Source: a virus
DNA: 64,000 bases
Virus record (IMG/VR): IMGVR_UViG_3300036985_004624
Reading direction: 5' to 3' (one strand)
Notes under the pieces: model-generated
Database searches by the model: none
What the model saw: the letters and a program-made list of their open reading frames with translations, nothing else
Told to the model about the DNA's origin: nothing
Part shown: piece after piece, positions 30,825 to 30,937 of the stretch
Layout: each line of letters begins with the position of its first letter
Position numbering within the stretch: the first letter of the stretch is position 1
Translations under genes and position numbers: made by a program

Positions 30825-30937
30825 CAGTATAGCGTTTTAAACATGCTTCCATTACACCAATTCCCCTTTCGGAGAACTGCGGATTCGAACCGCAACCGCT
30901 CTTTTATGAAAAGATTTTTATTTGCTGAAACTATACT
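30825..30937 (-). ncRNA. CAGCAA-stem ncRNA copy E, with permuted tRNA-like module (Y-RNA-like)
   Basis: AGTATAG-TTTCAGCAA...T-arm, GAAA-capped acceptor-like stem, D-arm...CTATACT. Confidence 0.75.

What the first reader, a model, noticed from the sequence alone, without database searches (positions are those of the whole stretch)
30825..30937. Circularly permuted tRNA mimic inside CAGCAA RNA copy E
Minus strand reads T-arm TGCGG-TTCGAAT-CCGCA, then an acceptor-like 7-bp helix GTTCTCC/GGGGAAT closed by a GAAA tetraloop (no CCA end), then TG and a D-arm GTGT-AATGGA-AGCAT. The order T-arm > closed acceptor > D-arm is the architecture known for bacterial YrlA Y RNAs, which mimic the tRNA elbow. 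The unit ends 4 nt upstream of the 8/4 tRNA-Ser, so RNase P cleavage of that tRNA could generate its 3' end. This ties the CAGCAA family to tRNA mimicry, for example as a decoy for host anticodon nucleases or tRNA sensors (inference).
Basis: partly seen in the sequence, partly recalled or inferred. Interest (0 to 1): 0.8.

Follow-up and report, generated by a model that had tools for sequence, protein, structure and literature searches.

The report
Phage Y-like RNA carrying permuted tRNA
A 112-nt RNA gene in a giant phage's tRNA cluster holds a complete tRNA body in rearranged order, with its amino-acid end sealed shut and a conserved "handle" that probably docks a Ro60-like protein encoded 3 kb away, so it is a divergent relative of the tRNA-mimicking bacterial Y RNAs (YrlA).

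Summary
On the minus strand, 30937-30826 reads: 7-bp terminal stem, single-stranded UUUCAGCAA motif, hairpin, 5-nt linker, T arm, 7-bp acceptor helix capped by GAAA, U8-G9, D arm, 3' strand of the terminal stem.

All the nucleotides that build a tRNA elbow are present. Three phage orthologues keep every helix through compensatory changes, and the cap stays GNRA. A model built only from bacterial and MAG sequences finds copy E full length (74.8 bits, E 1.7e-13).

The hairpin before the T arm reads as an anticodon arm (UCUU-UUCAUAA-AAGA, anticodon CAU) followed by a normal 5-nt variable loop. Copy E is therefore a whole tRNA body, permuted at position 26/27.

The gene at 34081-35520 has a predicted Ro60 fold. 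Such RNAs lie on its strand in phages and bacteria.

The Rfam YrlA model does not hit copy E. It scores relatives at 35-47 bits, below its cut-off of 69, so this is a YrlA-like variant and not a member of that family.

Protein binding, expression, processing and any decoy role are untested. Earlier reports of this scan had already noted the handle family and the Ro60-like gene.

The parts
30931..30937 (-). 5' strand of the terminal 'handle' stem (AGUAUAG)
   Evidence: It pairs with 30826-30832. Across family alignments the stem is 97.7% and 86% paired, and all 7 pairs show changes on both sides.
30915..30930 (-). Conserved single-stranded motif UUUCAGCAAAUAAAAA, the presumed protein-binding motif of the handle
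   Evidence: The motif C(A/C)GCAA follows the 5' stem strand in all family members. In a relative it aligns with the GNCGAA Ro-binding motif of the Rfam YrlA consensus.
30900..30914 (-). Hairpin UCUUUUCAUAAAAGA. It reads either as an anticodon-arm mimic (UCUU-UUCAUAA-AAGA, anticodon CAU) or as a YrlA-type 'V' stem-loop
   Evidence: It is conserved in L004, L003 and L001. In L004 the 6-bp form is broken, but the 4-bp stem with a 7-nt loop AUCAUAA holds. Analogues with canonical 5-bp stems and 7-nt loops carrying U33 and R37 occur in L083, L089, L025 and G005.
30895..30899 (-). GCGGU, a 5-nt linker of the same length as a class I tRNA variable loop (G at the position of G46)
   Evidence: CGG is invariant in the four orthologues. 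Relatives carry typical tRNA variable loops such as UGGUC, GGGUC and GAGUU.
30878..30894 (-). T arm UGCGG-UUCGAAU-CCGCA
   Evidence: The T stem is 100% paired in both family alignments. The two G-C pairs next to the loop are invariant and the other three pairs covary.
30860..30877 (-). Closed acceptor-like helix GUUCUCC-GAAA-GGGGAAU: 7 bp, GNRA cap, no CCA
   Evidence: Pairs 2:71, 4:69 and 5:68 change on both sides among orthologues. The cap is GAAA, GAAA, GUAA or GCAA. The helix is 99% and 91% paired in the family.
30842..30859 (-). U8-G9, D arm GUGU-AAUGGAA-GCAU and G26
   Evidence: A U occupies the U8 position in all 20 rows. The D stem is 92% and 97% paired. A14, R15, G18-G19 and A21 are present.
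30826..30841 (-). A-rich 3' linker UUUAAAACG followed by the 3' strand of the handle (CUAUACU)
   Evidence: The A-rich stretch precedes the 3' strand in all members. UUU could pair with AAA at 30915-30917 (AAUAA/UUAUU in L003 and L001).
30821..30825 (-). Spacer GAAAU between the unit and the next tRNA
   Evidence: The same spacer and tRNA follow the unit in L007. L045 has a 6-nt spacer before a tRNA.
30732..30820 (-). Unusual tRNA-Ser(CGA) with an 8-bp acceptor, 6-bp D stem, 4-bp T stem, long variable arm and encoded CCA. It is the neighbour whose RNase P processing could set the 3' end of the unit
   Evidence: Rfam tRNA-Sec model 46.4 bits, against a cut-off of 47. ARAGORN does not call it.
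35578..35682 (-). Paralogue 'copy B': same handle type, T arm and D arm joined by UUAUUA with no acceptor hairpin, directly upstream of the Ro60-like gene
   Evidence: R1 34.1 bits, R2 60.3 bits, R3 42.9 bits. Its positional counterparts in relatives have acceptor hairpins of 0, 3, 7 or 8 bp.
34081..35520 (-). Ro60-like protein gene (Pfam DUF2828 + DUF7788), the presumed partner of the handle
   Evidence: Pfam scan. The DxSxS MIDAS motif is invariant. AF2 model has pLDDT 79, pTM 0.76. The top 13 Foldseek PDB matches are all Ro60/TROVE, E 2.5e-10 to 1.6e-5.

Best explanation
Copy E is a small non-coding RNA of the phage 'CAGCAA-handle' family. This family is a divergent branch of the Y RNAs.

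Anatomy. The two ends pair into a 7-bp stem. That stem, with the adjacent single-stranded UUUCAGCAA motif, forms the docking site for the Ro60-like ring protein encoded 3.1 kb upstream on the same strand. The rest of the RNA folds as a tRNA whose chain has been circularly permuted. It has an anticodon-arm-like hairpin (loop UUCAUAA), a 5-nt variable loop, a T arm, a 7-bp acceptor helix sealed by a GNRA tetraloop, U8-G9, a D arm and G26. The D and T loops can form a normal tRNA elbow. The molecule therefore looks like a tRNA to proteins that read tRNA shape, but it cannot be charged as made.

Making of the RNA. It is probably cut out of the polycistronic tRNA-cluster transcript. RNase P cleavage of the tRNA-Ser 5 nt downstream would trim its 3' side.

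Likely function. As proposed for YrlA, the tRNA-like module would bring the Ro60-like protein together with a tRNA-recognising partner or substrate. This would form part of the phage's RNA repair and tRNA maintenance set: an RNA ligase gene next to the RNA array, many tRNAs and a tmRNA.

Shown here: the sequence anatomy, covariation of all helices, family membership, the Ro60-like predicted fold, and the same-strand linkage.

Inferred: protein binding, expression and processing, elbow formation in vivo, and the downstream function.
For: - Anatomy and tRNA signature nucleotides.
- Orthologues L004, L003 and L001 show compensatory changes in the T and acceptor stems and keep a GNRA cap. RNAalifold independently predicts the handle, hairpin, T and AS helices.
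- Family covariation. In 19 distinct phage sequences 93.6% of cells are paired, with covariation score 0.69 against 0.18 in shuffles and at most 0.11 when partners are slid. In 26 distinct bacterial and MAG sequences 88.6% are paired, score 0.55 against 0.18.
- Model R3, built without any sequence from the window or its phage relatives, finds copy E at 74.8 bits, E 1.7e-13.
- The de-permuted pieces are called a tRNA by ARAGORN; 0 of 50 controls are.
- The partner protein has the Ro60 fold.
- All 27 bacterial-locus hits lie on the gene's strand, mostly within 600 nt of it. This matches the YrlA criterion of Chen et al..
- The Rfam YrlA model aligns full length to relatives at 35-47 bits, with CAGCAA falling on the GNCGAA motif.
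- A complete relative (G005) has an E-type RNA with a GUA loop and also a normal tRNA-Tyr(GUA). The RNA therefore duplicates a decoding function and does not fill a gap.
- An RNA ligase gene lies beside the RNA array. Jumbo-phage TROVE proteins with a tRNA-like partner are discussed as RNA-repair platforms in PMC7824862.
Against: - There are no expression, binding or probing data.
- No promoter-like site lies directly before copy E, so a discrete RNA depends on assumed processing.
- The single-sequence fold is not exceptional (z = -1.29), and its minimum-energy structure does not show the T and D arms. Real tRNAs often behave the same way.
- The Rfam YrlA model does not hit copy E or its L004 orthologue.
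- The partner protein has no Pfam TROVE match, and the motif is CAGCAA, not GNCGAA.
- The Levitt 15:48 pair does not covary cleanly among the four orthologues (A:U, A:A, A:A, G:G).
- Family alignments were fitted to the model structure, which favours pairing counts.
Confidence: 0.72

Rival explanations
1. Decoy or sponge. The tRNA-shaped body, and possibly its CAU anticodon-like loop, would soak up host enzymes that attack or sense tRNA. Candidates are anticodon nucleases such as PrrC or RloC, PIN-type toxins that cut initiator tRNA, and tRNA-sensing defence systems. The Ro60-like protein would stabilise the RNA or hold it in place. This is a special case of the main explanation, not a contradiction of it.
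For: - The payloads of the family are pieces of tRNA with varied anticodon-like loops carrying U33 and R37. Examples are GAA in L014-16, GCU in L025, GUA in G005, and GCA and UGA in Clostridia loci. A plain tether to PNPase would not need this variety.
- The capped acceptor makes the RNA uncharged and inert in translation.
- The gene set nearby (RNA ligase, many tRNAs, tmRNA) fits a conflict over tRNA.
Against: - No defence system or nuclease is linked by any result here.
- The hairpin stem of copy E is only 4 bp if the loop is 7 nt. It could instead close to 6 bp with a 3-nt loop.
- Copy B and many other relatives have no anticodon loop at all.
Confidence: 0.2
2. Precursor of a two-piece, chargeable tRNA-like molecule. 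RNase P would open the acceptor cap, as reported for M. smegmatis YrlA, and CCA would be added. The result would be two RNA pieces held together by the handle, in the way the phage's own permuted tmRNA is made. On this view the locus is a true permuted tRNA gene.
For: - The 7-bp acceptor helix plus T arm is the main RNase P determinant. M. smegmatis YrlA, which has a 7-bp stem, is cut by RNase P and receives CCA (PMC4201824).
- The window encodes a permuted tmRNA.
- In Clostridia loci the same body occurs in normal order with free acceptor ends.
Against: - The cap is a conserved GNRA tetraloop in the E lineage, and UUCG or GNRA in several relatives. This points to a closed structural hairpin and not a removable linker.
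- Acceptor length varies among positional counterparts of copy B (0, 3, 7, 8 bp).
- No aminoacylation identity set is conserved. G3:U70 is present only in copy E and L004.
- The relative G005 already has normal tRNAs for the mimicked anticodon.
Confidence: 0.07
3. A protein-independent cis element of the tRNA operon. The tRNA-like fold would only recruit RNase P, RNase Z or RNase E to help process the neighbouring tRNA-Ser and the upstream ORF transcript. Alternatively it would be a decaying tRNA remnant with no function.
For: - It sits 6 nt after an ORF stop codon and 5 nt before a tRNA, with no promoter of its own.
- Chen et al. warn that tandem tRNAs can imitate YrlA.
Against: - L004, L003 and L001 keep the RNA without a downstream tRNA.
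- The two acceptor strands are complementary to each other and capped, which two adjacent tRNAs would not be.
- The flanks are the conserved handle and not tRNA halves.
- Compensatory changes in all helices argue against decay.
- The family tracks the Ro60-like gene across phages and bacteria.
Confidence: 0.06

Closest known systems
YrlA, the tRNA-mimicking bacterial and mycobacteriophage Y RNA bound by Ro60/Rsr (Rfam RF02553; Chen et al. 2014, PMC4201824; structure preprint 10.1101/312249)
   Same: - The ends pair and lie next to a short purine-rich protein-binding motif.
- The order is V hairpin, T arm, closed acceptor-like stem-loop, D arm.
- tRNA tertiary nucleotides are kept.
- It is encoded on the same strand within a few kb of a Ro60-fold gene.
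- The acceptor-like stem has variable length.
- The Rfam model aligns full length to relatives of copy E, and CAGCAA falls on GNCGAA.
   Different: - The motif is C(A/C)GCAA in an internal loop after a 7-bp stem, not GNCGAAN0-1G.
- The partner is a DUF2828/DUF7788 protein with no Pfam TROVE match.
- Copy E scores nothing with RF02553 and relatives reach only 35-47 bits against a cut-off of 69.
- In copy E the hairpin looks like a full anticodon arm, and the chain break lies at 26/27 instead of in the anticodon loop.
- The family also has members that carry only an anticodon hairpin or non-tRNA payloads.
Thermus phage phiLo Ro60 with Yrl1/Yrl2 (PMC12135203; PDB 9KOP, 9L5Y)
   Same: - It is a phage-encoded Ro60-fold protein and the best structural match to the window's protein.
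- Its partner RNAs are encoded next to the gene.
- Those RNAs have a 5'-3' stem flanking an internal loop that holds a short conserved motif (CGAA there, GCAA here).
   Different: - The paper describes no tRNA-like module for Yrl1 or Yrl2.
- The proteins share about 17% identity.
- Binding to host PNPase was shown there and nothing has been shown here.
Circularly permuted tRNA genes of the red alga Cyanidioschyzon merolae (recalled from memory, not checked here)
   Same: The 3' half (T arm, 3' acceptor strand) precedes the 5' half (5' acceptor strand, D arm) in the gene.
   Different: - Those precursors are circularised at a bulge-helix-bulge motif, and the acceptor linker is removed to give a normal chargeable tRNA.
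- Here the linker is a conserved 4-nt GNRA cap, no bulge-helix-bulge motif is seen, and the ends form a conserved protein-type handle.
Two-piece (permuted) tmRNA (Rfam RF04321 and RF01850; one is encoded in this window at 52731-53172)
   Same: It is a permuted tRNA-like domain: T arm and 3' acceptor strand come before the 5' acceptor strand in the gene.
   Different: tmRNA has a free CCA end, a tag reading frame and pseudoknots, and the link between the acceptor strands is cut out. Copy E has none of these.
Class I RNAs of dictyostelid amoebae (Rfam RF01414)
   Same: A short 5'-3' terminal stem is followed by a conserved ...UUACAGCAA motif. Sub-threshold Rfam hits fall on sister RNAs: 23.1 bits on copy C and 32.2 bits in L037, against a cut-off of 41.5.
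   Different: Copy E gets no hit. The host is a eukaryote, no tRNA-like payload is known for those RNAs, and no link to a Ro60-like protein has been tested.

Membership tests
YrlA (Rfam RF02553) | Score at or above the Rfam gathering cut-off (69 bits) | tested here: not met
   No YrlA hit on window 30300-31700 at E<=10. No hit on the L004 orthologue. Relatives score 42.1, 40.1, 47.1, 42.6, 37.7 and 35.7 bits.
YrlA (Rfam RF02553) | T and D stem-loops with tRNA-invariant nucleotides, separated by a closed acceptor-like stem-loop, often with a V stem-loop 5' of T (Chen et al. 2014) | tested here: met
   Sequence read. Covariation. Paper text.
YrlA (Rfam RF02553) | GNCGAAN0-1G motif near the 5' end | tested here: not met
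   Copy E has UUUCAGCAAAU. In a relative the motif aligns with the YrlA motif but differs at two positions.
YrlA (Rfam RF02553) | Encoded within about 4 kb of, and on the same strand as, a Ro60 (TROVE) orthologue | tested here: inconclusive
   Copy E is 3.1 kb downstream on the same strand. The protein is Ro60-like by predicted fold only. Pfam gives DUF2828 and DUF7788, not TROVE.
YrlA (Rfam RF02553) | Bound by Ro60/Rsr; carries tRNA modifications (pseudouridine 55, dihydrouridine) | not testable with these tools
   This needs immunoprecipitation and modification mapping.
tRNA (Rfam RF00005 / ARAGORN) | Cloverleaf in normal order with free acceptor ends | tested here: not met
   Neither ARAGORN nor Rfam calls a tRNA at 30826-30937. 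A tRNA is called only after in-silico re-permutation with a borrowed anticodon arm.
Permuted tRNA gene (processed to a functional tRNA) | Removable linker between the acceptor strands, a processing motif at the precursor ends, and CCA encoded or added | tested here: inconclusive
   The gene order fits. The linker, however, is a conserved GNRA tetraloop, no CCA is present, and the ends form the family handle. Processing cannot be tested here.
Dictyostelium Class I RNA (Rfam RF01414) | Score at or above the cut-off of 41.5 bits; terminal stem plus CCUUACAGCAA | tested here: not met
   No hit on copy E. Copy C scores 23.1 bits and an RNA in L037 scores 32.2 bits.
Phage/bacterial CAGCAA-handle RNA family (defined in this scan) | 7-bp terminal stem, then 2-4 nt and C(A/C)GCAA on the 5' side, an A-rich run before the 3' strand, on the same strand as a DUF2828-type Ro60-like gene | tested here: met
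   R3, built from bacterial sequences only, finds copy E at 74.8 bits.

The most novel reading that the evidence does not exclude
E-type RNAs are complete circularly permuted tRNAs mounted on a Ro60-like-binding handle. They hold an anticodon arm, variable loop, T arm, acceptor and D arm. In the cell, RNase P would open the acceptor cap and CCA would be added, as for M. smegmatis YrlA and as for the phage's own two-piece tmRNA. This would give a two-piece, possibly chargeable tRNA-like RNP. That RNP would act in translation or would bait enzymes that read both the anticodon and the acceptor end. The occurrence of the same body in the opposite permutation in Clostridia (free acceptor ends, capped handle) would then mean that a Ro60-like protein rides on otherwise tRNA-like molecules.
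Probability: 0.07. Interest if true: 0.9.

Novelty: new variant of a known kind. Interest (0 to 1): 0.66.

Why it matters
The role of the tRNA-like domain of bacterial Y RNAs has been open since 2014. This system offers a second, independent-looking branch of that biology. It has a Ro60-fold protein that sequence profiles file as DUF2828/DUF7788, and a different handle motif. Its payloads range from anticodon hairpins, through acceptor-less elbows, to a whole permuted tRNA body such as copy E.

The modules are swappable and occur in several copies per genome. The system is found in giant phages rich in tRNAs, RNA ligase and tmRNA, and also in gut Clostridia. These properties make several questions directly testable:
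- Which part of a tRNA does the Ro60-like RNP need to display?
- Which partner does it display it to?
- Is the purpose RNA repair, quality control, or defence evasion?

The work also assigns a likely function (Y-RNA-binding Ro60 analogue) to a widespread domain of unknown function.

Tried and rejected
- Rfam at gathering thresholds finds only tRNAs and tmRNA in the window. At E<=10 on 30300-31700 there is no YrlA, Y RNA or Class I hit on copy E.
- The single-sequence fold is not significant (z = -1.29) and its minimum-energy structure lacks the T and D arms.
- The CAGCAA-type word alone is not enriched in the window, so the family cannot be found by that word. It needs the stem plus the motif.
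- Megablast of 29000-33000 against GenBank phages gives no match.
- An exact-pattern scan of IMG/VR for the hairpin-plus-T-arm signature returns only the three orthologues already found.
- ARAGORN on the simply re-joined RNA, with the handle kept as the 'anticodon arm', finds no gene. It works only with a borrowed anticodon arm.
- A search for a parent tRNA among 391 tRNAs of the fetched loci gives no close match. The best global scores are spread over several amino-acid identities.
- phmmer of the protein against PDB sequences gives only weak armadillo-repeat noise. The Ro60 link appears only by fold.
- A literature search for DUF2828 finds nothing on RNA.
- The Levitt-pair covariation that Chen et al. 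report for YrlA was looked for in the four orthologues and not found.
- Some bacterial R2 hits with very long 'acceptor loops' are probably register-shifted readings of tandem normal-order units. I do not count them as capped permuted forms.
- The T-arm-like word at 27870-27880 lies inside a glutaredoxin-like ORF and is taken as chance.

Full report
**What is in the sequence.** Read on the minus strand from 30937 to 30826, the RNA has the following parts:

| Part | Sequence |
|---|---|
| Handle, 5' strand | AGUAUAG |
| Single-stranded motif | UUUCAGCAAAUAAAAA |
| Hairpin | UCUUUUCAUAAAAGA |
| Linker | GCGGU |
| T arm | UGCGG-UUCGAAU-CCGCA |
| Acceptor helix and cap | GUUCUCC-GAAA-GGGGAAU |
| Positions 8-9 | UG |
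| D arm | GUGU-AAUGGAA-GCAU |
| Position 26 | G |
| 3' linker | UUUAAAACG |
| Handle, 3' strand | CUAUACU |

- The first and last seven bases are complementary.
- In tRNA numbering the unit has U8, A14, A15, G18, G19, A21, G53, U54, U55, C56, A58 and C61. A U sits just before the T stem where U48 would pair with A15.
- Five bases (GAAAU) separate the unit from an unusual tRNA-Ser(CGA). That tRNA has an 8-bp acceptor, a 6-bp D stem and a 4-bp T stem. ARAGORN misses it, and the Rfam tRNA-Sec model scores it 46.4 bits against a cut-off of 47.

**More than chance.**
- I put the acceptor, D and T pieces back into normal order around an anticodon arm borrowed from the phage's tRNA-Gly. ARAGORN then calls a tRNA for copy E and for each of its three orthologues. 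It calls none in 50 shuffled-piece controls each.
- Model R3 was built only from RNAs found in bacterial and MAG contigs. It finds 30826-30937 as the top hit in the window, full length, at 74.8 bits, E 1.7e-13.

**Orthologues.**
- The gene at 34081-35520 has 32 relatives in IMG/VR, many on contigs of 130-385 kb.
- Three of these loci (L004, L003, L001) carry copy E with the same handle.
  - The T stem changes UGCGG/CCGCA to CGUGG/CCACG and to CAGGG/CCCUG.
  - Acceptor pairs 2:71, 4:69 and 5:68 change on both sides.
  - The cap is GAAA, GAAA, GUAA or GCAA, so it stays GNRA.
- RNAalifold, given only the alignment, predicts the handle, hairpin, T arm and acceptor helix. It does not recover the weak D stem.
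- At the same handle, L007 has a T arm and a poor D arm without an acceptor hairpin, followed by the same GAAAU and tRNA-Ser.
- At the same handle, L014-16 carry only an anticodon-like hairpin, UUUUA-CUGAAAA-UAAAA.
- The handle is therefore constant and the payload is exchangeable.

**The wider family.**
- A model built from the four sequences (R1) finds diverged RNAs with the same plan beside the gene in most phage loci.
- On 19 distinct sequences, 93.6% of cells pair. The T stem is 100% paired, the acceptor 99%, the handle 97.7%, the D stem 92% and the hairpin 76%. The covariation score is 0.69, against 0.18 for shuffles and at most 0.11 when partners are slid.
- The RNA directly upstream of the gene (copy B in the window, 35578-35682) has an acceptor hairpin of 0, 3, 7 or 8 bp in different phages. 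Often it also has a 5-bp stem that corresponds to the anticodon stem, so there the handle replaces the anticodon loop.
- The protein has 399 relatives in the prokaryote genome collection. In the 80 loci fetched, R2 finds 27 RNAs, all on the gene's strand and mostly within 600 nt of it. Of their cells, 88.6% pair.
- A caution applies to the bacterial set. In Clostridia the Rfam tRNA model-123-nt 'tRNAs' that overlap these hits. Reading L083 shows normal-order tRNA bodies with free acceptor ends, whose anticodon arm contains the CAGCAA module capped by a loop. Hits with very long 'acceptor loops' there may be shifted readings of tandem units. Compact capped forms (L045 twice with GUAA, L054, L104) are unambiguous.

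- Opened by two pairs, UCUUUUCAUAAAAGA becomes UCUU-UUCAUAA-AAGA. That is a 7-nt loop with U33, CAU and A37, followed by exactly five bases before the T stem, the length of a class I variable loop.
- In L004 the closed 6-bp form has an A-A mismatch, while the 7-nt loop form (AUCAUAA) is intact.
- Distant relatives have clean versions: AAGUU-CUGCAAA-AACUU + UGCG (L083), AAAGA-CUUGAAA-UCUUU + UGCU (L089) and UUUCA-CUGCUAA-UGAAG + AGUU (L025).
- A distal copy in the tRNA cluster of the complete 385-kb relative G005 has UCUUU-CUGUAAA-AAAGA + AGAU, then T arm, 6-bp capped acceptor, UC and D arm.
- My reading is that copy E is a whole tRNA body permuted between positions 26 and 27. The alternative is that the hairpin is a variable arm and the A/U pairing of the linkers (AAA/UUU; AAUAA/UUAUU in L003 and L001) is the anticodon stem, as in YrlA. 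These tools cannot exclude that.
- G005 has 54 normal tRNAs, including tRNA-Tyr(GUA) and three tRNA-Met(CAU). The mimic therefore duplicates an anticodon and does not supply a missing one.

**The partner protein.**
- Pfam gives DUF2828 plus DUF7788 and no TROVE match.
- A DxSxS MIDAS motif is invariant across 15 relatives.
- The AlphaFold model (pLDDT 79, pTM 0.76) has Ro60/TROVE structures as its 13 best PDB matches. These are Thermus phage phiLo Ro60, D. radiodurans Rsr, and Xenopus and human Ro60. E-values run from 2.5e-10 to 1.6e-5 over about 520-580 aligned columns. Isolated vWA domains follow at E of about 1e-2.

**Comparison with YrlA.**
- Chen et al. 2014 define YrlA by three features. 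The first is a 5' GNCGAAN0-1G motif. The second is V, T, AS and D stem-loops in that order with tRNA-like invariant bases. The third is a position within 4 kb of Ro60 on the same strand.
- They also report that M. smegmatis YrlA, which has a 7-bp AS stem, is cut by RNase P and receives CCA.
- Copy E meets the architecture and linkage features. It does not meet the motif or the Rfam score.
- The Rfam model aligns full length to relatives at 35-47 bits. In that alignment ACAGCAAAUAC lies on acggCgaAUGCu, so CAGCAA falls where the Ro-binding motif lies.
- The phiLo Yrl RNAs are likewise described as a 5'-3' stem flanking an internal loop with a CGAA motif.
- I therefore file copy E as working like YrlA and as a probable distant relative, but not as a member of RF02553.

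**Context and likely working.**
- Strong promoter-like sites precede the RNA array upstream of the gene. None precedes copy E, which starts 6 nt after an ORF stop codon. It is probably processed from the tRNA-cluster transcript.
- The spacing to the downstream tRNA is 5 nt in the window and in L007, and 6 nt in L045. This fits RNase P setting the 3' side. L004, L003 and L001 lack that tRNA.
- An RNA ligase gene (PF09414) sits just upstream of the RNA array. An SNase-like nuclease, two radical SAM proteins, NADAR, eight tRNAs and a permuted tmRNA lie around it.
- Iyer et al. list TROVE proteins with a tRNA-like partner among the RNA-repair gear of jumbo phages.
- The most likely mechanism is a Y-RNA-like RNP. 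The handle would dock the Ro60-like ring, and the tRNA-shaped module would recruit or compete for a tRNA-recognising factor.
- A decoy role against tRNA-directed nucleases is plausible given the anticodon-like loops, but it is untested.

**Relation to earlier notes of this scan.** Earlier reports had already described the handle family, the Ro60-like gene, anticodon-loop payloads and the normal-order tRNA bodies with the module. I re-tested the fold, the handle, the linkage and the Class I likeness. This report adds four things:
- the orthologue and family evidence for the permuted tRNA body of copy E;
- its anticodon-arm reading;
- the independent detection with a model built only from bacterial sequences;
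- the explicit YrlA membership test.

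Noticed in passing
window 30732-30820 (-): tRNA-Ser(CGA) with an 8-bp acceptor, 6-bp D stem with a 4-nt loop, 4-bp T stem, long variable arm and encoded CCA (tRNA-Sec-like or 'allo-tRNA'-like shape). ARAGORN misses it. The Rfam tRNA-Sec model gives 46.4 bits against a cut-off of 47. An orthologue with compensatory changes follows the same handle RNA in L007.
   Followed up: partly
window 52731-53172 (-): Phage-encoded permuted (two-piece) tmRNA: Rfam tmRNA_permuted 106.6 bits and beta_tmRNA 104 bits. 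ARAGORN gives the tag ANAYTTESFVALDLSAFADSDMAMEMVA. The relative G005 has one too (149048-149415).
   Followed up: no
window 45991-46065 (-): tRNA with anticodon CUA (an amber-reading, suppressor-type tRNA, which ARAGORN labels Pyl). Relatives carry one as well (G005 144387-144463).
   Followed up: no
window 26940-27005 (-): An isolated T-loop-like GGGUUCGAUUCC followed by UACUAGCGGUACCA and a strong hairpin-plus-U-run terminator, in the gap between two plus-strand ORFs. It looks like a tRNA 3' fragment (possible attachment-site remnant). No finder calls it.
   Followed up: no
L083:2019-2135 (also 2351-2473 and 2558-2672; L089, L098, L110, L119): In Clostridia genomes the region upstream of the Ro60-like gene holds arrays of 105-123-nt normal-order tRNA bodies (free acceptor ends, Rfam tRNA 46-54 bits). 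Their anticodon stem runs through a CAGCAA internal loop into a handle-like stem capped by an anticodon-like 7-nt loop. This is the opposite circular permutation of copy E.
   Followed up: partly
window 35699-35794 (-) and counterparts in most loci: Sister RNA 'copy C' carries a payload that is almost invariant across phages (...GAACCUUUCUGGAGGGGAAAGCAAAAACUCGCC...). It gives a sub-threshold hit to the Dictyostelium Class I RNA model (23.1 bits). Its payload is not tRNA-like and remains unexplained.
   Followed up: partly
window 35868-36117 (-): A large (about 250 nt) handle RNA (AGAGUGG ... CCACUCU, AUGCAGCAA motif) behind an 11/12 sigma-70-like promoter at 36165-36137. Its payload was not analysed.
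   Followed up: no
window 33335-34084 (+): An ORF with a NUMOD3 motif (homing-endonuclease type) on the opposite strand. It abuts the 3' end of the Ro60-like gene, inside an otherwise minus-strand block.
   Followed up: no
window 36999-38027 (-): RNA ligase (PF09414 plus PHA02142 OB fold), separated by only one ORF from the handle-RNA array. This recalls the rsr-yrlBA-rtcBA arrangement of Salmonella.
   Followed up: partly
G005:158433-158520, 159459-159525, 172600-172653, 172964-173016 (-): Further handle RNAs scattered through the tRNA cluster of a complete 385-kb relative. Payloads include a lone T arm and an anticodon-like hairpin, UUCAA-CUUGUAA-UUGAA. There are at least seven family members per genome.
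   Followed up: partly
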